DNA of 20,000 nt from an uncultured virus (IMG/VR IMGVR_UViG_3300024520_000058) (Duplodnaviria > Heunggongvirae > Uroviricota > Caudoviricetes): the IMG/VR virus record IMGVR_UViG_3300024520_000058. One strand, 5' to 3'. The stretch's first letter is position 1, and each line of letters begins with the position of its first letter. Shown piece after piece: positions 1,618 through 19,591 of this stretch. The notes under the pieces are model-generated. The model worked only from the letters and a program-made list of their open reading frames with translations, searched no databases and was not told the origin of the DNA. The position numbers and the translations under genes were made by a program.

Positions 1618-3453
1618 CTAAAACACAAGCTCTTTCTGCTTGGTTGGTTGAGTTCTGATGAGCTGCTCGATGAACTTCTGACGAAGTACCGGCGCCGGTA
1701 AACCATTTATGTCTCTGCCCACTTTCCAGAGACTGTCTGCCTCACGCTTTTCTTCTACCTCATCCGGACGTCCCTGGCCACTCTCCAATAAGTCCATCAC
1801 CTGGTGGCCAATCCCCAGAGCAAACAGCCTGTCGTCCGGATGACCCTGGAGCTTCCCGTTCTTGTCCTGGACAAATCCCAGCGCTTCATTTATGCAACCC
1901 AGATCAGGTACCGATAACAGTAAATCACTTACAAGTGTCCTATGTGCCTCTACGATTGCCCGTCGCATTCCACCGATCACATACGTTCGGGTACCCACGT
2001 GGGTGTCCCAACCTGGCGCTGACTGAAACCGCAAACCCAATGCCAGGTCATTGGTTGATGGTCGATGGAAGATTCTACCTATGGGGTACTTCTCAATCCC
2101 CAGCTCTTTGTATCCCCGGATGAGGTACGTTTGTGCCTGTGCTCCATAGTTACGTATTTCAATCGCCATCCACGCAGGTTTGTAGTTGGGCTCCCCTTCA
2201 TGGTAGAAGTGCCCAAGAAGCCATAGCTCCCGCGCGAGCTGCTCTTCAGAGAGGTGTCCGTGGATACTTGCCACTATCCGACGAGTATCTTTCCGGAACA
2301 CGTATGCAGCAGTATAGTCTCCACCTGGTTTTCCCTCTGCTACATCCACTGCTATCACATACCCAGGACTTTGCTGGAGATGCTTCTTGGGAACAGGTAG
2401 CTCCCATATCTTCAGCATGTAATCTCCCTCTGGCAAATCAGGGAAATATCCCAGCTCATCAGTACTGTCCACAAACTTGACCATGGACCCAAGAGGTTCC
2501 TGGGGGTCGTGGATAAGAACACCTAACTTGGGGGTGGATACCTCCAGATGGTCCATGAGATGGGTACGCAGCTTTAGAAGTATGTCTCGGTCGAAGCAGC
2601 TTCTTCCGGTGAAAACCATGAAGAGCCCGGTCTCCCGGATGCGTATCTCCATAGCTCCCATACCTGCCATCATGTCCAGCGCCTGCTGCACGTTCATATA
2701 CTTTGCGTTTTCTCTCATGTTCACGTAATAGATCCACAGCTCTGGCCTGGAGCTCTGGTCCCTCTGCCAAGGTTCCACCAGGTCTTTGTGCATCCAGAGT
2801 ACGTCTCTTGCAAGTAGTGGGCTATCAGCATCCACAACTGGTGTCAAACAGATCCACATATAGCCTCCAGACCTGGTGAATCTCATTTTGATTTCGTTGT
2901 AGATGGAGCGAGGATGTGGCTCATCCATGAACACGAAGTTCTTCTTTGAACCCTTGTAGGCGTTGACACCCTGGGTGACCCACTTGCAGTTCCACCAGGA
3001 GGGATATCTGTCATCGATGCCTTTGAACATGGCGCGATGCATGATGCCTTCCCGTATGTCATAGTTTTTCACGTAGGGTCCCATTACGCGGTCGAAGATA
3101 GGACGAATATTATCACGCTGTACGTCCTGCGAATAACAGGACATCCAGCCTTCAATCCCCGTTGTAGGTATGCGAAGGTCCATGTAGGGATGAATTGTCT
3201 TGCCAGTAAGATTGCCGTCTTCGTCTTCTTCAGCAACGGTATGCCATCCGGCTCGCACCATTCCGCAGTAGCTCTTGCCAGATCCGTTGCCCCCAGCGAA
3301 GATTATCTCATGGTGGTCAATATCCTCAAAGAATGGAACTTGACCACCCTCATTTGGCGTGAAGGTGTCAAGAATGGTAGACTCTTCCACACTTTCGAAG
3401 ATCGCCGCCAGTTCGCGCTGTTCTTCCTCTGTGGTAAACAGATTCGCTTCCAT
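1618..3453 (-). CDS. terL: Terminase large subunit
   Basis: Walker A IFAGGNGSGKS, Walker B FVFMDEP, motif III CLTP; RNase H-like nuclease motifs IAVDVAEG-x3-GDYT, AIEIRNYG and HPDDRLFALGI; lies just upstream of the portal gene. Confidence 0.93.
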   Translation of the reverse strand: MEANLFTTEEEQRELAAIFESVEESTILDTFTPNEGGQVPFFEDIDHHEIIFAGGNGSGKSYCGMVRAGWHTVAEEDEDGNLTGKTIHPYMDLRIPTTGIEGWMSCYSQDVQRDNIRPIFDRVMGPYVKNYDIREGIMHRAMFKGIDDRYPSWWNCKWVTQGVNAYKGSKKNFVFMDEPHPRSIYNEIKMRFTRSGGYMWICLTPVVDADSPLLARDVLWMHKDLVEPWQRDQSSRPELWIYYVNMRENAKYMNVQQALDMMAGMGAMEIRIRETGLFMVFTGRSCFDRDILLKLRTHLMDHLEVSTPKLGVLIHDPQEPLGSMVKFVDSTDELGYFPDLPEGDYMLKIWELPVPKKHLQQSPGYVIAVDVAEGKPGGDYTAAYVFRKDTRRIVASIHGHLSEEQLARELWLLGHFYHEGEPNYKPAWMAIEIRNYGAQAQTYLIRGYKELGIEKYPIGRIFHRPSTNDLALGLRFQSAPGWDTHVGTRTYVIGGMRRAIVEAHRTLVSDLLLSVPDLGCINEALGFVQDKNGKLQGHPDDRLFALGIGHQVMDLLESGQGRPDEVEEKREADSLWKVGRDINGLPAPVLRQKFIEQLIRTQPTKQKELVF

Positions 3454-3498
3454 GATAACGGTATCCTACCTATGATTTTTTAAGGGCCCTTCAAAGCA

Positions 3499-3547
3499 AG
3501 GTTACCATATCTGACAGAGATTGTCAAGCCGAAATCCGGTTTTTTTT
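3499..3547 (-). promoter_or_regulatory. Sigma70-type promoter for the terL-portal operon, with operator-like inverted repeat and upstream A-tract
   Basis: Minus strand TTGACA (3527-3522), 17 bp, TAACCT (3504-3499), with TG of an extended -10. Inverted repeat TGACA-N5-TGTCA (3512-3526) overlaps the -35. A8 tract at 3540-3547 sits in the UP-element position. Confidence 0.7.
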
Positions 3548-3562
3548 GGGTTGGGAGGTTTC

Positions 3563-3629
3563 ACAGAATCCATGAGGTGTCACATGCAGGTAGGTAGGAT
3601 GCCAAAGTAACACCTCGAATGGATTCTGT
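3563..3629 (-). promoter_or_regulatory. Long RNA hairpin between dnaB and terL with an anti-SD loop
   Basis: Minus-strand arms ACAGAATCCAT-tc-GAGGTGTTAC and GTGACACCTC-ATGGATTCTGT (21 bp, one G-U, one 2-nt bulge). The loop contains ATCCTACCTA, the exact complement of TAGGTAGGAT at the terL ribosome-binding region (3463-3472). Confidence 0.7.
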
Positions 3630-3692
3630 AGTGAGGGGAGGGATCGGACGCCGCTTAAATCGCAAAATGCTCTGGTCGAATATGCGGAATGT

Positions 3693-5084
3693 TCAAGGCC
3701 TGGCCAGAGTCAAGGTTCTTTTGTCAGGCCGGGCTCGCTGTGACTGCTTGAACTTTGCTTCCATCAGATTGAAAGTTACAGGTATCATCCCTGTGGGTCC
3801 ATTGCGCTGCTTGCCAATGATGAGTTCGCAGGGCCCTCCCTGGCTGGGATTGCGGCTCTGGTAGTCCTCTCGGAAGATGAATAACACGATGTCCGCATCC
3901 TGCTCGATTGCTCCTGACTCACGTAAGTCAGAAAGCTGGGGCCGCTTATCAGGACGGTATTCAACGCTCCGATTGAGCTGCGATACAACGATGAACGGTA
4001 TGTCCAGGGACATAGCCAGAATTTTCAGTTCCCTGGAGATCTGAGTGATGTCATCAACACGCTTGCCAGTGGGTTTGGATGCGCTCATCAGCTGCAGGTA
4101 GTCTATGATCACCAGGTCAGGTTTCCCCTGCTTGCCAGTAATACGGAGAAGGTGCGACCGTACATCCCGGGGTGTGAGGTCTGGTGAGTCTTCTATATCA
4201 AATTTCGCTCCGCTTAGTCTACTTGCAGCAAGGGTCACGGCTGACCATTCCTTCTCCTGGATCTTTCCAACTCTGAAACGCAAGAACGGTATACCCGATT
4301 CTGAAGCAAGGATCCTGGTTACAAGCAGTTCTTTCTTCATCTCCAGAGAAAACATTACTGCGTGTTTCTTGCCTTCTACCGTGACATACTGTCCAAAATT
4401 CTGGACAAGAGTGCTCTTCCCTACACCTGGCCTGGCTGCCACAATTACCAAATCACCACCAGCAAGTCCTGTGGTCTGCAGGTCCAAGTACTTTATGCCC
4501 AAAGCCAGACCTACTATAGGATTGTCCTCCTCATTCATTTTTTGCAGTTTGTTGATTACCTGCTTTACACTCTCCTTCGTGGTAACCTGGTCCGGGAGGG
4601 TTGAGTTATTCAGTTCCAGAAGCTGATTCAAAGCCTCTGCCAATATCTTCTCTGAGGGTTGCTCGTTGTCGTAGGCACTCTCATTGATGTGAAAACTTGC
4701 GTAAATCAGCTGCCGCTTAATCGCTTCCTCAATAATCATCTCAGCATAGTACTTCACATTGGCTGATGAAGGACTGGCGTCTATCAGCTCGTTGACGTAT
4801 GGAACGCCGCCCACTTTCTCAAGATGTCCGTTACGCTCCAATCTCTTGGTTACCATCAGCAGATCTACCGGCTCATCGTCATCGAATAGCTCCTTGATAA
4901 TATTCCAGATTTTGTTATGCCGCTCTCGATAGAATACCTCGTCACCTCTGATAAGCAACATACACTCAGCGATTGAACCTCTCTGATCGTCATCAAGGAC
5001 CATCAGACCCCCAAGTAGAGCTCGCTCAGCATCGATGTCTTGCGGCGCTACTCTATCCAGTTGTATGCGAGTTCCGTTATTCAT
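3693..5084 (-). CDS. dnaB: Replicative DNA helicase DnaB (phage-encoded)
   Basis: N-terminal PQDIDAERALLG, Walker A AARPGVGKS, FSLEM, IIDYLQLM, SQLNR...RPQLSDLRESGAIEQDAD, KQRNGPTG. Confidence 0.97.
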   Translation of the reverse strand: MNNGTRIQLDRVAPQDIDAERALLGGLMVLDDDQRGSIAECMLLIRGDEVFYRERHNKIWNIIKELFDDDEPVDLLMVTKRLERNGHLEKVGGVPYVNELIDASPSSANVKYYAEMIIEEAIKRQLIYASFHINESAYDNEQPSEKILAEALNQLLELNNSTLPDQVTTKESVKQVINKLQKMNEEDNPIVGLALGIKYLDLQTTGLAGGDLVIVAARPGVGKSTLVQNFGQYVTVEGKKHAVMFSLEMKKELLVTRILASESGIPFLRFRVGKIQEKEWSAVTLAASRLSGAKFDIEDSPDLTPRDVRSHLLRITGKQGKPDLVIIDYLQLMSASKPTGKRVDDITQISRELKILAMSLDIPFIVVSQLNRSVEYRPDKRPQLSDLRESGAIEQDADIVLFIFREDYQSRNPSQGGPCELIIGKQRNGPTGMIPVTFNLMEAKFKQSQRARPDKRTLTLARP

Positions 5085-5898
5085 CCGTCTCCCCTAGTGC
5101 TGTCATGAAACTGTAATTGCCATATTCCACCTCTGTTCCAGTCACCTGGAGGTAGATCCAGGGCAAAGCTTGAAAGTCTGGAAGCTTCTTAATCTTGCGC
5201 GCTTTATCCAACCAACGAACGATCTCTCTATACTCAATTCCCATAGCCTGAAATTCCACCATTACCTGACGTAAATCTGGCAGGAACAGATAGGGCTCAT
5301 AACCTGCAAATTCATGGTTCAAATCCTGACCCCATTTGTCAGCCTCATTGATGGGCTCAAAAGGTCGTGAATATTCCTGTTCCCCATCACCATAAACACC
5401 GTTTTGTTGTTCCGCGTTGTGTTTAAAGTTTTCTGTATAAGGATGAGATCTGTCCTCTCGTACGGTACTCGATGTCCTCTCGTACGGTACTTTATGTCCT
5501 CTCGTACGGTACTGATCTGTCCTCTCGTACGGTACTGATGTCCTCTCGTACGGTACTTTATGTCCTCTCGTACGGTACTTTCCCAGCCAGTTTAGCACAA
5601 ATTCGTAGTCCAATTCGTAGCTTGGTGACGATCCTTTTCCACGCGTATTTTGAGTGATAAAAGAGTGTTCAGAAAGGGTCTTGAGATGGCGGGTTATATT
5701 CCTCGTATTCAGCCCTGTTCTGGATGCCAAATGGAGGTTCGGAATAACAAGAGCATCGTCTGTCCAATACTCGCCATTATTCTCGCCATTGAATATCTCC
5801 AATATGTAGAAACCCAGACACTTATGTACTGAATTCAGATCATCCAGGGAGAACAGACATTTTGTACAATTCATGAAATTGATGGGATTGGTTGACAA
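5077..5898 (-). CDS. Phage replication initiator (lambda O-like layout, N-terminal winged helix)
   Basis: TTG start with SD AAGGAGG 6 nt upstream; wHTH-like LASRTGLNTRNITRHLKTLSEHSFI; internal iteron array; overlaps dnaB by 8 bp. Confidence 0.8.
   Translation of the reverse strand: MSTNPINFMNCTKCLFSLDDLNSVHKCLGFYILEIFNGENNGEYWTDDALVIPNLHLASRTGLNTRNITRHLKTLSEHSFITQNTRGKGSSPSYELDYEFVLNWLGKYRTRGHKVPYERTSVPYERTDQYRTRGHKVPYERTSSTVREDRSHPYTENFKHNAEQQNGVYGDGEQEYSRPFEPINEADKWGQDLNHEFAGYEPYLFLPDLRQVMVEFQAMGIEYREIVRWLDKARKIKKLPDFQALPWIYLQVTGTEVEYGNYSFMTALGETDE
5447..5579. repeat. Iteron array, putative replication origin: 6 x TGTCCTCTCGTACGGTACT
   Basis: Identical 19-bp copies start at 5451, 5473, 5495, 5518, 5539 and 5561 (periods 22, 22, 23, 21, 22). 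An AT-rich stretch is adjacent (~5420-5440) and the array lies inside the initiator gene. Confidence 0.9.
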
Positions 5899-5904
5899 GG
5901 ATAG

Positions 5905-6000
5905 CCTCCTTCAGTGCGGACTCGGCAATGGTGGACGACTGAAGGGGCGTCCACCACCGAGTCACAGGCTGCTGAACAGGGAGCTTATCCCCTGTTAGCA
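5905..6000 (-). promoter_or_regulatory. Structured 5' leader of the replication initiator mRNA (two hairpins, anti-SD in loop)
   Basis: Hairpin 1: TGCT-AACAGGG / CCCTGTT-c-AGCA (6000-5970). Hairpin 2: GACTCGG-TGGTGGACG / CGTCCACCA-ttg-CCGAGTC (5963-5919), whose loop CCCCTTCAGT is complementary to ACTGAAGG (5915-5908) overlapping the SD. Confidence 0.75.
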
Positions 6001-6026
6001 TGGGCAAGTGTGAATTTTCTATCTGC

Positions 6027-6055
6027 ATTATAGCAGGTGATACCTGTTAAGTCAA
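6027..6055 (-). promoter_or_regulatory. Strong sigma70 promoter of the rep-dnaB operon with a palindromic operator in the spacer
   Basis: TTGACT (6055-6050), 17 bp, TATAAT (6032-6027), with TG of an extended -10; the spacer contains CAGGT-atc-ACCTG (6046-6034). Confidence 0.85.
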
Positions 6056-6061
6056 GGTCAG

Positions 6062-6095
6062 TAGAAAATGGGGCCGGTCTATTCCCCAGCCCCAT
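6062..6095 (-). terminator. Rho-independent terminator
   Basis: Stem ATGGGGCTGG / CCGGCCCCAT (one G-U) with an 8-nt loop, running into TTTTCT; lies directly upstream of the next promoter. Confidence 0.75.
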
Positions 6096-6096
6096 C

Positions 6097-6164
6097 GCTT
6101 CCGCGTTCTTCTGGGAGGTAACTTGGAAGGAAACGCAGAAGCTATCGGCACACGTCTGCACCGA
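6097..6164 (-). ncRNA. Structured 3' UTR element, candidate regulatory RNA (two hairpins before the terminator)
   Basis: Hairpin A: TCGGTGCA-gacg-TGTGCCGA (6164-6145). Hairpin B: GCTTCTGCGTT-tc-CTTC / GAAG-AACGCGGAAGC (6142-6097) with loop CAAGTTACCTCCCA. The wobble positions are G-U only on the minus strand. Confidence 0.55.
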
Positions 6165-6563
6165 CTACTTAATACTCAATATGAACAATGGTCGTAACCC
6201 GTCGCGCTCTGCATCCAGGAGATCTCTCATCTCTTCCTTAGTGCAGGTGAACTGCCCCTTCTTTTTCTTCCCTGTGTACATTCCATCTTCAAGTGACGAC
6301 AGGTTAAGTGGATGTTTGTCAGGCGTCTGTTCCACCGGAGCAGCTTCCCCCACTTCCTCCAAAGCTTTCTCAATAGCTTCAGATGCTTCCTTGGCTGCCT
6401 GCTGCTCCTTATCGTCTTCCTCAGCAACTGCTTCCTTCGCATTCAGGGCCAGTTCTTCTTGGCTGGATTCCCCTGGTTGCTTGTCCTGGGGTTTACGGAT
6501 GTATTTCATCATACCTTCTGCGTCAATATAGCAGTAAAACTCGAGACTCACTTCAGCTTTCAT
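6165..6563 (-). CDS. Hypothetical acidic protein (132 aa)
   Basis: Start reassigned to ATG 6563 (SD GGAGG); Glu/Ala-rich middle; last gene before the terminator. Confidence 0.7.
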   Translation of the reverse strand: MKAEVSLEFYCYIDAEGMMKYIRKPQDKQPGESSQEELALNAKEAVAEEDDKEQQAAKEASEAIEKALEEVGEAAPVEQTPDKHPLNLSSLEDGMYTGKKKKGQFTCTKEEMRDLLDAERDGLRPLFILSIK

Positions 6564-10429: not shown

Positions 10430-10534
10430 CTTCCTCAATTCCTTTCCTCAATCCCTCAATCCCTTGAGGAGGCTCCTGCCGGGCACCACACCATCACATT
10501 CCAACCGGATAATGTTCCGACAGAAGCCAATGCG

Positions 10535-12171: not shown

Positions 12172-12669
12172 TTATCCTAATCTAATTTTGTGCTCTTCGT
12201 ACTTTTTAGTGGTCCAGGAGTTGACCTCCCCATTACTATGTGTAAAAATGTCGGGGACAACGTAAAGCCCATCATCCTCAATCTGGAACTTAAAGGAAAG
12301 AGTCCCTACTGGAAATGGGCTTATCGTCTCAAGCTCTATGGAATGCCTCATCTTTTCTGCCGCCTCACTCAAACGCTCCAGGAAATCGGGAGACGCATCC
12401 TTCAGCTTCAGCTCCACCTTCTTACTGAGCGTCGCAGTTATCATCGTCTCTACTAGATTCCGGATGAAAGCAGGCTTGAACTCCACCATAGTGCTACCTG
12501 CCTTACGCTCCAAGACGCTCTGCTCCAGAAAGATACATCCTGCTTCATTGACGAGGGTTCGTAGACCAACATCGCTGCCATCCCACTTTACCAGGATGTG
12601 ATTGAATACCGAAGTGAAATACTCTTTCATCTGTTGATAGGCTGCATCATTTCCTTGCTCAAGGCCCAT
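12172..12669 (-). CDS. Hypothetical protein (165 aa)
   Basis: Start reassigned to ATG 12669 (SD GGAGG), immediately after the upstream stop. Confidence 0.7.
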   Translation of the reverse strand: MGLEQGNDAAYQQMKEYFTSVFNHILVKWDGSDVGLRTLVNEAGCIFLEQSVLERKAGSTMVEFKPAFIRNLVETMITATLSKKVELKLKDASPDFLERLSEAAEKMRHSIELETISPFPVGTLSFKFQIEDDGLYVVPDIFTHSNGEVNSWTTKKYEEHKIRLG

Positions 12670-13740: not shown

Positions 13741-13758
13741 TTCTTACCTCCGTGAACA

Positions 13759-13788
13759 ACTCTATCACAATAAGTTTCTTCCTGTCAA
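13759..13788 (-). promoter_or_regulatory. Sigma70-type promoter for the 13740-6165 operon
   Basis: TTGACA (13788-13783), 18 bp, TAGAGT (13764-13759), with TG of an extended -10, in an 80-bp intergenic gap with A-rich upstream sequence. Confidence 0.6.
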
Positions 13789-16534: not shown

Positions 16535-16764
16535 AATTCCGTTGTGAACCGCTTGATGATATTCTGCTCTGTAGCTTTCAGAAAGGCGTCGTTGCCACAA
16601 GATAGCATGTCATTCACTATCTGGTCAGCTATGGTCTCAACGCATGTGCAGTGGTCGAATTCAGCATAGGCGTTGAAGTATTCCCAGCCTAGCTCCTCCA
16701 GTAGTTCGATGGCTGGTTGCTCCACCAGTTCATTCTCCGAATAGCCGCTCGTTGGGGTGGTCAT
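16495..16764 (-). pseudogene. hsdR: Truncated type I restriction subunit (first ~38 codons) fused to unrelated sequence
   Basis: MTTPTSGYSENELVEQPAIELLEELGWEYFNAYAEFDH is a typical HsdR N-terminus, coupled to hsdS by ATGA; similarity ends at ~16651 and the ORF stops at 89 aa (HsdR is about 1000 aa). Confidence 0.85.
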
Positions 16765-18026
16765 ATAGTCTCCTCGGGGATGGTGATGTCAAGTTCTGAT
16801 ACGTCCAACTCACCAGATATGAGTCTGGGTAGGAGTAGATCGCGGGTAAGGCGAAGGCTGACGTTGCTATCCCTTAAAGATTCTCCCAGTTCATGTGTAT
16901 CGTTCGCTATTTGCTCGAATAGCCTTATTAGTTGTCTCGTAGGCAACGCGAATGTGAAGTTGAGCGCATCATCTGCTCGAAAACCAAGTACTGTAGTTCC
17001 GCTGGCACAGCCCTTCGCATATTCATGAAATCCACCTGACTGAAGAAGATGGAACAGGAATATCTGATTCATGGGACTATGCTCTTCCAACCTCACTATG
17101 CAGATGTGATGAGATGCAATACCTCCTCCATCGAATCCACTTCGTGGTACAAGCCCTGGGCTGCCGATTATATTTCCAGCCTGAGTAAGATCCGTATTAG
17201 CAAAGACAAGATCTCCTGACTGTACCCGGTGCCTTGATTTGTAGTCACCTGAATATGGCTTAGTTCCATCTCGTTTGAATCCTCCACCGGGAGGTATACA
17301 TTTCAGATTCACCATCGGGAGCCCATCATCTGTTAGATATTTACCTTTATAAGAGATCCCCTTGTCTATTGTGATGAGTTCGCGAAGTTTCTTCACTTCC
17401 CACTCCTCCGGAATCCCATCAACGAAGCGGGCATCCGCGTTGCCAGGGAAGCGGAACTTGACGAACCACTCCCTGTAGAGGTTCTCCGCCATCTCCTCCA
17501 GTATCCTGATCCGCCGCAGGTTGTTCTCGATCAGGTCGTCGTAGGCGGAGAGGATCGAGGCGATCTTGTGCTGTGTGGGGAGTGGAGGGAATCTCCACTC
17601 CGAATCACAGAGCACTTTCCAGCTTGCGCGGGGCATTCTGGTACCACTCGATATGTTGGTCGCGTGATCAATGAATTCTTGACTTGCGATCAGGTAGTAG
17701 AGAAACACTTGGTGCGTATTAGCTTTAGCACGAATGACGGTGATATCTGTCGAACACACCCCCCCAAATCTTGGCCTTGCTACTTTGCGGAAGTATGGCC
17801 GCAGGCTGCCGAAGAGGATTTCTCCTGCACAGAATGCTTTCTTTGTGCTTATGGTGGCTGTGGAGCTACCTATCCCGTTTAATCTTAGCGACTGCTGAGC
17901 TATGTGCTCTAACCCAATATATGGATATTCCTCTCCACTTGCAGGTTCGTATAAGTTACGGATCTCTTCGGCCCTATCTCCTAATTTGCAGATAACCCAC
18001 TGATCCTCGGCAGTTGTGTTCACCAT
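16761..18026 (-). CDS. hsdS: Type I R-M specificity subunit
   Basis: Two TRDs separated by conserved PPLPTQHKIASILSAYDDLIENN...LYREWFVKFRFPG and closed by RDLLLPRLISGELDV; TAATG-coupled to hsdM. Confidence 0.96.
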   Translation of the reverse strand: MVNTTAEDQWVICKLGDRAEEIRNLYEPASGEEYPYIGLEHIAQQSLRLNGIGSSTATISTKKAFCAGEILFGSLRPYFRKVARPRFGGVCSTDITVIRAKANTHQVFLYYLIASQEFIDHATNISSGTRMPRASWKVLCDSEWRFPPLPTQHKIASILSAYDDLIENNLRRIRILEEMAENLYREWFVKFRFPGNADARFVDGIPEEWEVKKLRELITIDKGISYKGKYLTDDGLPMVNLKCIPPGGGFKRDGTKPYSGDYKSRHRVQSGDLVFANTDLTQAGNIIGSPGLVPRSGFDGGGIASHHICIVRLEEHSPMNQIFLFHLLQSGGFHEYAKGCASGTTVLGFRADDALNFTFALPTRQLIRLFEQIANDTHELGESLRDSNVSLRLTRDLLLPRLISGELDVSELDITIPEETI

Positions 18027-19591
18027 TACTTCTCCTCCAACAGCCTCACTACATTCTTAGCGATCCGCTCCTCCAACTCCCGCGCTTCGCTGTTGAGTAC
18101 TTCCAGTTCCTCGTTCAACTCTTCCAGCCTCTCGAAGAAGTCGAAGTCATCCTCCTCACGCGCAGCTACTCCTACATAGCGCCCAGGATTGAGACTATAG
18201 CCCTGAGCCTCTATCTCCTCCACTGTGGCCACCTTACATAGCCCAGGCACGTCAGCGTACTCACCATTAGGGAAGCTCCCTGCCATGAGTTCAGCACTAC
18301 CGTGTAGATCCTCAGCTTCCTCACCACGATAGAGTCGGGCTATATTAGCCAGGAACTCCACCTGCTCCGGCGTCCAGTCGCGATGGGCACGGTCGATCTG
18401 ATTGTAAATATGGCGGGCGTCGATGAAGAGCACCTGGTCGGCGCGATCGGTTTCCCTCTTGCCCTTATCCAGGAACCAGAGGGTGCAAGGCAGCGTCACC
18501 GTGTAGAAGAAATTGGAGCCTACAGCTACCATCACATCCACGGCACGTTCCTCGATAAGCTTCTGGCGGATCTCCATCTCTGAAGATCTGGCGTCGGATG
18601 CGGAGTTTGCCATGACAAAGCCAGCCCGACCTCTGTCATTCAGCGCGCTGTAGAAGATCTGGATCCAGAGATAGTTGGCGTTGTCCGGCCGGGGTAATCC
18701 CAGCGGGAAGCGCGGGTCGTCCTTCAGGCGGTCCTTATCCACCCGGTCTACGTTGAATGGCGGATTAGCCATCACGAAGTCAAACTTGCCGCCGCCCGCG
18801 GTGCTGGTGTGCAAATCCTCATAGTATGTATTGCCCTGCCGTATATCTCCGTCCAGTCCGTGAACGGCCAGGTTCATCCTGGCCAGCCGCACAGTTTCGG
18901 ACACTCGCTCCTGACCGTGGATGCTCAGGTCGCCGCCGGACATGGCCCTATGCTCAGCCACAAAACGGGCGCTCTGGACGAACATACCGCCTGAGCCGCA
19001 GGCCGGATCGAATATGCGCCCCTGGAAAGGCTCCATGATGGAAACTATGAGCTTGACGATGGCGGTGGGCGTGAAGAACTCGCCGCCCTTCTGACCCTCA
19101 CTCATGGCGAAGTGGCCCAGGAAGTACTCGTAGATCCTACCGAAGGCGTCACCCTCTATGTCCATAGGGATGGAACTCATTATTCTGAGTAACTCAGCTA
19201 GAGTAGTGCTCTCGAAGCGGTTGTAGGTCTTAGGGAGTACGTCCTTGAGGTCGGGATTGCCACCCTCTACTGCCCGCATGGCGTCATTGATAGCCTGACC
19301 GATGTTGGTGCCCTCTGGAAGCTTAGTCAGTGATGAGAAGCGCGCCTCCTGTGGAAGGTAGAGCACACCTCGTGCCTGGTAGTCGGCTGGGCCAATAGTA
19401 CGTCTCCCTGTGGCGCTCCCCTTCAGTTCCTCCGCAGCAACCTGGAACCTATGGTCTGCATAGCGCAGGAAGATCAATCCCAGGACAGGGATGGAGTATT
19501 CAGATGCCTTGAGCTTGGAGTTAGCCCTCAGTTCATCGGCGGCATCCCATAGCCTATTCTCTAGCTTAGTGTCTAGTCCATTGTCGTTCAT
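18026..19591 (-). CDS. hsdM: Type I R-M N6-adenine DNA methyltransferase subunit
   Basis: [17 protein letters not shown], motif [11 protein letters not shown], motif [23 protein letters not shown]. Confidence 0.97.

What the first reader, a model, noticed from the sequence alone, without database searches (positions are those of the whole stretch)
3463..6164. Recurrent long hairpins displaying anti-Shine-Dalgarno loops at operon boundaries: candidate RNA-based translational control system
Seen: three hairpins of unrelated sequence (6097-6142, 5919-5963, 3563-3629; stems of 15-21 bp). Each loop is complementary to the ribosome-binding region of the first gene after one of the three promoters found: TTACCTCC to GGAGGTAA (phosphatase gene, 13744-13751), CCTTCAGT to ACTGAAGG (rep, 5908-5915), ATCCTACCTA to TAGGTAGGAT (terL, 3463-3472). 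The matches extend beyond the generic SD core into gene-specific flanks, and stem wobbles are G-U only on the mRNA strand. Known: SD occlusion times expression in T4 (genes e, soc) and IncI/IncB plasmid rep leaders. Inference: this phage may gate its accessory, replication and packaging operons by loop-SD pairing. I do not recognise the three-part arrangement as a described system.
Basis: partly seen in the sequence, partly recalled or inferred. Interest (0 to 1): 0.85.

Follow-up and report, generated by a model that had tools for sequence, protein, structure and literature searches.

The report
Hairpins and terL ribosome-site occlusion
The three hairpins are real, but only the one upstream of the terminase gene plausibly blocks a ribosome-binding site, and it does so by a read-through safeguard already known from phage T4, not by a new three-part system.

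Summary
All genes lie on the minus strand of an uncultured marine phage.

**Strength of the three matches**
- **Loop 1 to the phosphatase site:** no better than chance. P is 0.04-0.08 and the target is 7.6 kb away.
- **Loop 2 to rep:** moderate, P about 0.006. It cannot form in cis while the hairpin stands, because a 3-nt linker would have to cross a ~17-bp stem.
- **Loop 3 to terL:** the strong one. It matches 12 of 13 bases, with P between 3e-4 and about 0.01.

**What the relatives show**
- None of the hairpins is conserved. Rep has no homologues, and hairpin 3 is absent from six related metagenomic loci.
- In those six loci the extended -10 of the terL promoter pairs with the terL ribosome site. 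Fold z-scores are -3.5 to -6 and two pairs carry compensatory changes.
- This pairing can form only in read-through RNA. That is the mechanism of T4 genes e and soc.
- The window keeps a weaker copy of this pairing, and the loop of hairpin 3 looks like a second lock on the same site.

A fourth long hairpin (10471-10528) has no anti-SD loop. Verdict: a new member of a known kind, of modest interest.

The parts
3563..3629 (-). Hairpin 3. It has 11 + 10 bp with a 2-nt bulge and a 23-nt apical region. It lies between the dnaB stop (3693) and the terL promoter, and no U-tract follows it.
   Evidence: -34.1 kcal/mol, z -8.6; the plus strand gives -29.8. It is absent from relatives L001-L006.
3591..3603 (-). 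Anti-RBS segment in the loop of hairpin 3 (GGCAUCCUACCUA).
   Evidence: pair I1: 13 nt, 92% complementary to 3460-3472; duplex -18.7 kcal/mol, reached by 2 of 2000 shuffled loops.
3499..3527 (-). terL promoter. The -35 is TTGACA (3527-3522), the spacer is 17 nt, and the extended -10 is TGgTAACCT (3507-3499).
   Evidence: TTGACA and TGGTA..CT are invariant in 7 of 7 aligned leaders. The consensus scan did not list it, because the window's -10 matches only 3 of 6.
3499..3511 (-). 5' arm of the promoter/RBS hairpin (GAUAUGGUAACCU). It is present only in RNA that starts upstream of this promoter.
   Evidence: -12.1 kcal/mol against the terL RBS, reached by 5 of 300 shuffles; this helix is part of the minimum-energy fold of the read-through RNA.
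3454..3472 (-). terL ribosome-binding region (UAGGUAGGAUACCGUUAUC), followed by ATG at 3453-3451. It is the target of both the loop of hairpin 3 and the -10 arm.
5919..5963 (-). Hairpin 2 in the rep 5' leader. It has 7 + 9-10 bp with a 3-nt bulge, and its loop is CCCCUUCAGU.
   Evidence: -29.0 kcal/mol, z -4.5; the loop pairs with ACUGAAGG-A-GG at -14.0, reached by 13 of 2000 shuffles; the best nested fold containing that helix is 4.8 kcal/mol above the minimum-energy fold.
5899..5915 (-). rep ribosome site (ACUGAAGGAGGCUAUCC), followed by TTG at 5898.
   Evidence: The gene caller's version (P0034, 265 aa) starts at the in-frame ATG 8 codons downstream.
6027..6055 (-). rep promoter, TTGACT-17-TATAAT.
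   Evidence: 11 of 12 matches, with TG before the -10.
6064..6094 (-). Intrinsic-terminator-like hairpin followed by UUUUCU. It ends the upstream operon.
   Evidence: -21.7 kcal/mol, z -4.9. The scan did not list it.
6097..6142 (-). Hairpin 1 in the 3' UTR of gene 6587-6165. Its loop is CAAGUUACCUCCCA.
   Evidence: -23.5 kcal/mol, z -3.4; its RBS matches are at chance level.
10471..10528 (-). It has no anti-SD loop.
   Evidence: -37.2 kcal/mol on the minus strand against -24.4 on the plus strand; its best RBS match is 7 nt, and to an unrelated gene.

Best explanation
The region holds ordinary operon-boundary RNA hairpins. Only one of the three proposed loop-SD pairs is likely to be functional.

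**Shown by comparison.** In this clade of marine phages, the terL ribosome site (AGGAUACC plus its spacer) is complementary to the extended -10 region of terL's own sigma-70-type promoter.

**Follows directly from the sequence, if the promoter is real.** RNA that reads through from the upstream genes contains both arms, so the SD is locked into a long hairpin. RNA started at the terL promoter lacks the 5' arm, so the SD is free.

**Inferred from one genome.** The window keeps a weakened copy of this lock. The loop of hairpin 3 lies upstream of the promoter and matches the same ribosome site at 12 of 13 bases. It probably acts as a second, stronger anti-RBS on read-through transcripts from the rep-dnaB operon.

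**The other hairpins.** The SD matches of hairpins 1 and 2 are chance, or are not usable in cis. Like the fourth hairpin at 10471-10528, these hairpins are most likely RNA processing or stability elements.
For: **Family lock**
- In L001-L006, the stretch from the extended -10 to the start codon folds at -20.1 to -25.2 kcal/mol, z -3.5 to -6.0, with 0 of 300 shuffles as good in each of the 6.
- In alignment A2 (7 sequences), the 12-pair lower stem has 92.9% of 84 cells paired, against 30-63% when the partner is slid by 1-3 columns.
- Two of those pairs carry changes on both sides (GC to AU, UA to CG). The covariation score is 0.266 against 0.215, and 16 of 500 shuffles reach it.
- The sense strand folds better than the antisense strand in 6 of 6.
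- Specificity: I found 21 sigma-70-like promoter matches in the window plus L001-L010. Only the 7 terL promoters of this clade have a -10 arm complementary to downstream sequence (-11.3 to -17.7 kcal/mol, 0-5 of 300 shuffles). In each of the 7 the target is the terL RBS. The other 14 give -2.5 to -8.1 kcal/mol, with 71-277 of 300 shuffles as good.
- The predicted unpaired probability of the SD window is lower in read-through RNA than in promoter-initiated RNA in 6 of 6 (0.01-0.29 against 0.30-0.50).

**Hairpin 3**
- The loop-to-next-gene 10-mer gives P 0.0003.
- The duplex is -18.7 kcal/mol (2 of 2000 shuffles), against an opening cost of 7.9.
- No minus-strand terminator-like site lies between dnaB and terL, so read-through is expected.

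**Precedent**
- T4 genes e, soc, 49 and I-TevI work this way. [quoted passage not shown]
Against: - No transcript ends, RNA data or translation data exist. No RNA run was listed.
- Only 6 relatives are available, with 5 distinct leaders. Covariation is therefore thin, and both arms are also constrained by promoter and SD function.
- Hairpin 3 occurs in this genome only, and the four other metagenomes that hold it show no variants. Its role therefore rests on statistics that were framed after the match had been seen. As a plain local inverted repeat, the 12-of-13 match is reached by 17 of 500 shuffles.
- The window's own -10/RBS fold is not significant as a whole (-13.9 kcal/mol, z -1.27, 36 of 300).
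- The terL promoter looks constitutive (consensus -35 and extended -10). Why read-through translation would need to be blocked is therefore unexplained.
Confidence: 0.45

Rival explanations
1. All three loop-SD matches are coincidences. The four long hairpins are RNase III-type processing sites, 3'-end stabilisers or leaky terminators of long polycistronic phage mRNAs. They have no role in translation.
For: - Four regular 15-21 bp hairpins sit in the largest intergenic gaps of a one-strand gene array.
- One of the four has no anti-SD loop.
- Loop 1's match is at chance level.
- Local complements of 8 nt or more are common, in 8.2% of windows.
- None of the hairpins is conserved.
- T7 carries RNase III processing signals within its polycistronic early mRNA precursor (PMC3867540, one passage).
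Against: - The 12-of-13 match of loop 3 to the very next ribosome site is rare: P 0.0003 and 2 of 2000.
- It targets a site that the family demonstrably occludes by another arm.
- Processing and occlusion are not mutually exclusive.
Confidence: 0.33
2. Three hairpin loops form a dedicated system that gates the accessory, replication and packaging operons by loop-SD pairing. A variant pairs hairpin 1 with rep rather than with the phosphatase gene.
For: - All three loops are pyrimidine-rich (64-80%).
- Loops 2 and 3 match the next gene's RBS.
- Hairpins 1 and 3 share the layout hairpin, then promoter, then RBS.
- Loop 1 against the rep RBS gives -10.6 kcal/mol, reached by 86 of 2000 shuffles.
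- The rep leader has an alternative fold containing the loop-2/SD helix only 4.8 kcal/mol above its minimum-energy fold.
Against: - Loop 1 to the phosphatase site gives P 0.04-0.08 over 29 sites, and the target lies 7.6 kb upstream.
- Loop 2 is a 10-nt loop whose target begins 3 nt after a ~17-bp stem. A cis pseudoknot is sterically implausible (inference), and the hairpin (-29 kcal/mol) outweighs the helix (-14).
- The scan found no plus-strand promoter in 5860-6060 that could make an antisense trigger.
- There is no conservation and no Rfam family.
- The fourth hairpin lacks the feature.
Confidence: 0.08
3. The inverted repeats act as DNA. They could be operators for a regulator that brackets the terL and rep promoters, or packaging or replication structures next to terL and the iteron origin.
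For: - The 13-bp arms at 3460-3472 and 3591-3603 bracket the terL promoter.
- Hairpin 2 folds equally well on both strands (-29.0 against -31.0).
- A 10-bp palindrome, AAGGGCCCTT, lies in the terL leader (pair I5).
- No small terminase subunit or pac/cos site was identified.
Against: - The family hairpin contains 13 G-U cells among its paired cells, and it is much weaker on the antisense strand in 6 of 6.
- Hairpin 3 and the fourth hairpin favour the mRNA strand.
- A spacing of 118 bp between the arms is unusual for a dimeric operator.
Confidence: 0.08

Closest known systems
Occlusion of the ribosome site on early read-through transcripts of phage T4 genes e (lysozyme), soc, 49 and I-TevI (PMC3014915, passages of section 29)
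   Same: - The SD or start codon is sequestered in a helix whose 5' strand is encoded by, or lies upstream of, the gene's own promoter.
- Transcripts from that promoter lack the 5' strand and can be translated.
- The feature is conserved among related phages.
   Different: - The promoter here is of sigma-70 type (TTGACA-17-TGnTATTCT), not a T4 late TATAAATA promoter.
- The gene is terL.
- The phages are unrelated to T4.
- The window adds a second anti-RBS, displayed in the loop of a separate hairpin about 120 nt upstream. This would be a long-range loop-to-strand pairing, not a simple hairpin.
RNA pseudoknot switch of rep translation in IncI-alpha, IncB and IncL/M plasmids (repZ/repA). I know this from recall; here I saw only titles in the reference list of PMC10724649.
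   Same: A hairpin loop in a rep leader is complementary to sequence next to the rep ribosome site.
   Different: - As I recall it, that pseudoknot activates translation, is coupled to a leader peptide, and is opposed by an antisense RNA.
- Here the pairing would cover the SD.
- The target starts 3 nt after a ~17-bp stem.
- The scan found no antisense promoter.
RNase III processing hairpins between genes of phage T7 polycistronic mRNA (PMC3867540, one passage)
   Same: Long irregular hairpins with bulges lie at gene-cluster boundaries of a phage whose genes are all transcribed in one direction.
   Different: - Cleavage is untested.
- The host is unknown.
- T7 sites are not defined by anti-SD loops.

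Membership tests
T4-type RBS occlusion on read-through transcripts | The SD or start region is base-paired in transcripts that begin upstream. | tested here: met
   This is an in-silico test only.
- The hairpin is significant in 6 of 6 relatives.
- 92.9% of cells are paired, and 2 pairs are compensatory.
- The window's minimum-energy read-through fold contains the helix.
- SD accessibility is lower in long RNA in 6 of 6.
T4-type RBS occlusion on read-through transcripts | The gene's own promoter lies within or upstream of the 5' arm, so its transcripts lack that arm. | tested here: inconclusive
   The 5' arm is the extended -10 itself (alignment columns 19-30). Any start downstream of the hexamer therefore lacks it. 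The promoter is inferred from conservation alone, and no 5' ends have been mapped.
T4-type RBS occlusion on read-through transcripts | Transcription from upstream genes reads into the gene. | tested here: inconclusive
   No minus-strand terminator-like site lies in 3454-3692, and hairpin 3 has no U-tract. No RNA data exist.
T4-type RBS occlusion on read-through transcripts | Long transcripts are translated poorly and short ones well. | not testable with these tools
   This needs reporter or toeprint assays.
IncI-alpha/IncB rep pseudoknot control | A hairpin loop is complementary to sequence adjacent to the rep RBS. | tested here: met
   The loop CCCCUUCAGU pairs with ACUGAAGG-A-GG at -14.0 kcal/mol, reached by 13 of 2000 shuffles.
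IncI-alpha/IncB rep pseudoknot control | An antisense RNA gene overlaps the leader. | tested here: not met
   The consensus scan found no plus-strand promoter-like site in 5860-6060 and no plus-strand terminator-like site there. A weak promoter cannot be excluded.
IncI-alpha/IncB rep pseudoknot control | The pseudoknot is geometrically feasible with the hairpin intact. | tested here: not met
   A 3-nt linker (CGC) would have to span a ~17-bp stem. This is an inference from A-form geometry, not a 3-D model.
RNase III processing site | About two turns of mostly regular dsRNA lie in an intergenic region of a polycistronic mRNA. | tested here: met
   The four hairpins have 15-21 bp and lie in four intergenic positions.
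RNase III processing site | RNase III cleaves it. | not testable with these tools
   This needs an enzyme assay or 5'-P end mapping.
Intrinsic terminator | A G+C-rich hairpin is followed directly by a U-tract. | tested here: not met
   Hairpins 1, 2 and 3 are followed by GAUGGGG, CGCACUG and GAAACCUC. Only the 6094-6064 hairpin is followed by UUUUCU.
Any Rfam family | The match reaches a family's gathering score. | tested here: not met
   One search found one hit below threshold, elsewhere in the window (12384-12448, 19 bits against a gathering score of 38), and nothing in 3400-6200.

The most novel reading that the evidence does not exclude
This phage uses anti-RBS sequences displayed in hairpin loops as long-range locks.
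- Hairpin 3 forms a pseudoknot spanning about 120 nt with the terL ribosome site. It backs up a decaying promoter-arm lock.
- The rep leader is a two-state switch. A trans factor that captures the 3' arm of hairpin 2 would release the loop so that it covers the SD.

Together these would make a small family of loop-borne translational gates at operon boundaries.
Probability: 0.1. Interest if true: 0.6.

Novelty: new member of a known kind. Interest (0 to 1): 0.33.

Why it matters
If it holds, it shows that the T4 trick has arisen independently. In that trick, a gene's own promoter is placed inside the RNA arm that silences the gene's ribosome site. Here it occurs at the terminase gene of an uncultured marine phage clade that uses host-type promoters. 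That gives annotators a simple sequence signature for late genes that are insulated from read-through transcription.

Tried and rejected
- **Whole genome and earlier findings:** neither was available.
- **Rfam:** nothing in the region.
- **Cultured relatives:** none are close. The DNA search hit only short dnaB segments (15 records). TerL tblastn found 11 records at 31% identity or less.
- **Rep-based relatives:** none in viral contigs. A search of the 5.8-billion-protein collection returned only the window's own protein. Covariation for hairpin 2 could therefore not be tested.
- **TerL-based scans:** these found nothing in viral contigs, either with the single protein or with alignment A1, and nothing in genome contigs.
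- **DNA searches in viral contigs:** an exact 23-mer from hairpin 3 gave 0 hits. The leader motif gave 118 or more stretches. None of those held as loci encodes a relative of any window protein or has the promoter context, so I dropped all of them as chance matches.
- **Sequencing runs:** no RNA holder was listed. Contigs of four DNA runs laid on 3400-6200 show no differences in the hairpin or RBS stretches they cover. There is therefore no microdiversity to use for covariation.
- **Inverted duplication as the origin of loop 3:** local alignment finds no similarity beyond the 13-mer.
- **Literature on loop-displayed anti-SD systems in phages:** the search listing held nothing relevant.
Full report
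**Layout**

All credible ORFs are on the minus strand. In the order of transcription the region reads as follows:
- a long gene array running from a phosphatase-like gene (13740) to gene 6587-6165;
- a small hairpin, then hairpin 1 (6142-6097), then a terminator-like hairpin with UUUUCU (6094-6064);
- the promoter TTGACT-17-TATAAT (6055-6027, 11 of 12 matches);
- a 122-nt leader holding a 7-bp hairpin (5994-5973) and hairpin 2 (5963-5919);
- CGC, then ACUGAAGGAGG, then 6 nt, then the TTG start (5898) of a 273-aa protein that carries six 22-bp iterons inside its ORF (5447-5579);
- DnaB (5084-3693; Pfam DnaB_C, E 2e-83);
- 63 nt, then hairpin 3 (3629-3563), then an A8 run;
- the promoter TTGACA-17-TGgTAACCT (3527-3499);
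- a leader, then UAGGUAGGAUACCGUUAUC, then the ATG (3453) of TerL (PHROG 2), a 170-aa ORF and the portal gene.

The phage is uncultured.
- Its DNA is held by six seawater metagenome runs.
- No whole genome is held for it.
- The nearest cultured phages share 31% TerL identity or less.

**Observation**

The three hairpins are real and stable on the mRNA strand, with z -3.4, -4.5 and -8.6. The quoted complementarities sit at the quoted coordinates. The terL match extends to 12 of 13 bases (pair I1).

The strand-specificity argument is weak. There are only two G-U pairs in all, and the energy differences between strands are +1.3, -2.0 and +4.3 kcal/mol.

**Chance**

I tested each loop against composition-preserving shuffles.

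| Loop | Exact match tested | P | Duplex energy test |
|---|---|---|---|
| Loop 1 | 8-mer to any of 29 ribosome sites | 0.08 (245 of 6662 random windows) | not run against all 29 sites |
| Loop 1 | chosen phosphatase site only | not run | 27 of 2000, before correcting for 29 sites |
| Loop 1 | next gene, rep (5 nt) | 0.15 | 86 of 2000 |
| Loop 2 | 8-mer to rep | 0.006 | 13 of 2000 |
| Loop 3 | 10-mer to terL | 0.0003 | 2 of 2000 |

The background tempers these figures.
- 8.2% of 2806 random 22-nt windows have a complement of 8 nt or more within 300 nt upstream, and 0.5% have one of 10 nt or more.
- Among the 29 genes, 3 reach 8 nt or more.
- As a bare local inverted repeat, the 12-of-13 match is reached by 17 of 500 shuffles. 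It is the placement, with one arm in a loop and the other on the next ribosome site, that makes it rare.
- My rough joint estimate for loop 3 lies between 3e-4 and 1e-2.

An unbiased scan found a fourth regular intergenic hairpin (10528-10471).
- It folds at -37.2 kcal/mol on the mRNA strand against -24.4 on the other strand.
- Its apex is purine-rich and matches no ribosome site by 8 nt or more.
- The loops of the four other small hairpins tested also match none.

**Relatives**

- TerL has 33 relatives in the protein collection, at 35-73% identity.
- A scan of metagenome contigs with alignment A1 returned 10 loci. Six of them (L001-L006, TerL identity 60-76%) form the close clade.
- L001 and L004 share the window's gene order around dnaB, terL and portal.
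- Rep has no homologue apart from itself. Hairpins 1 and 2 therefore cannot be tested by comparison.
- Hairpin 3 is absent in all six. Their intergenic region before terL holds only the promoter and leader. In L001, for example, the upstream ORF ends at 5876 and the -35 begins at 5897.

**What the relatives show instead**

From the -35 onward the seven sequences align well.

In L001-L006, the stretch from the extended -10 (TGTGGTATTCT) to the start codon folds into one long hairpin. Its 3' arm is the ribosome site (AGGATACCACA).
- The energies are -20.1 to -25.2 kcal/mol, z -3.5 to -6.0, with 0 of 300 shuffles as good in each.
- On the alignment, the 12-pair lower stem has 92.9% of 84 cells paired, against 30-63% in the six slid controls.
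- Two pairs carry changes on both sides.
- The covariation score is reached by 16 of 500 shuffles.
- The structure is much weaker on the antisense strand in 6 of 6.

The feature is specific to terL in this clade. I tested 21 sigma-70-like promoter matches in the window and L001-L010.

| Promoters | Duplex of -10 arm with downstream sequence | Shuffles as good (of 300) | Target |
|---|---|---|---|
| 7 terL promoters of this clade, including the window | -11.3 to -17.7 kcal/mol (window -12.1) | 0-5 (window 5) | terL RBS in all 7 |
| 14 others | -2.5 to -8.1 kcal/mol | 71-277 | none consistent |

The 14 others include the window's two other promoters and the terL promoters of the more distant L007-L010.

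L007-L009 instead carry a canonical terminator directly before the terL promoter.

**Mechanism**

The 5' arm is the -10 element itself. A transcript started at this promoter therefore cannot contain it. Only RNA arriving from upstream can form the lock.

The predicted SD accessibility is lower in read-through RNA than in promoter-initiated RNA in 6 of 6. This assumes a start 7 nt after the hexamer.

This is the logic described for T4 genes e, soc, 49 and I-TevI (PMC3014915, passages of section 29).

In the window the promoter arm is degraded. The -10 is TAACCT, which gives one A-A mismatch, and the whole fold gives z -1.27. Hairpin 3 has no steric obstacle, because about 110 nt separate it from its target. 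Its loop offers a stronger duplex with the same site: -18.7 kcal/mol against an opening cost of 7.9. I read it as a second lock. This step rests on one genome and is inference.

**Hairpin 2**

The whole 10-nt loop can pair with ACUGAAGG-A-GG. However, the target begins 3 nt after a ~17-bp stem, so the pairing cannot coexist with the intact hairpin. This is an inference from helix geometry.

A nested alternative fold that contains the helix lies 4.8 kcal/mol above the minimum-energy fold. Folding in the order of transcription would favour the hairpin. The scan found no antisense promoter. A trans-triggered switch is possible but unsupported.

**Hairpin 1**

Its loop carries the generic anti-SD core, ACCUCC. 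The proposed partner is the first ribosome site of the same long operon, 7.6 kb away, and the match is at chance level.

**Verdict**

- The three-part system is not supported.
- The part that survives is terL RBS occlusion on read-through RNA, with a loop-borne second lock in this genome. It is a new member of a known kind.

Noticed in passing
window 10471-10528 (minus strand): A fourth long intergenic hairpin folds at -37.2 kcal/mol on the mRNA strand against -24.4 on the other strand. A small CCUCAA/UUGAGG hairpin follows it, and then a tandem GGGATTGAGG-GATTGAGG just before the TTG start at 10438.
   Followed up: partly
window 5447-5579: Six 22-bp iterons (core GTCCTCTCGTACGGTACT) lie inside the ORF of the 273-aa protein upstream of dnaB. 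This suggests a lambda-O-like origin within the initiator gene. The protein has no homologue in the 5.8-billion-protein collection apart from itself.
   Followed up: partly
window 3483-3492; L001-L004 and L006 leaders: The motif GAAGGGCC is conserved in 6 of 7 terL leaders (not in L005). It lies at about +1 to +12 of the predicted mRNA, in the apical loop of the leader hairpin. In the window it is part of a 10-bp palindrome, AAGGGCCCTT. It could be a protein-binding site.
   Followed up: no
window 3526-3550 (plus strand): A terminator-like hairpin (AAGCCGAAATCCGGTTT) followed by T8 lies on the strand that has no genes, between hairpin 3 and the terL -35. It could stop antisense transcription coming out of terL.
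   Followed up: no
window 13759-13788: In the promoter TTGACA-18-TAGAGT, the -10 ends only 7 nt before the GGAGGTAA of the phosphatase-like gene. That mRNA would therefore begin at or inside its own SD.
   Followed up: no
L004 3429-5897: The DnaB homologue is 822 aa long and matches the window's DnaB in two separate segments. This is consistent with an inserted element such as an intein.
   Followed up: no
L007 about 300-350; L008 about 3480-3530; L009 about 5880-5930: The more distant relatives (TerL identity 47%) have a canonical hairpin-plus-T-run terminator directly upstream of the terL promoter. They have no complementarity between the promoter and the RBS. This is a different way of insulating terL.
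   Followed up: partly
window 16761-19591: The phage carries type I restriction-modification genes, an HsdM-like methylase (N6_Mtase, E 5e-84) and an HsdS-like specificity subunit. No HsdR is visible in the window.
   Followed up: no
L006 1924-2043: In the closest relative, the gene upstream of terL is a RyR-domain protein, not dnaB. The conserved module therefore starts exactly at the -35 of the terL promoter, which marks a mosaic boundary.
   Followed up: no
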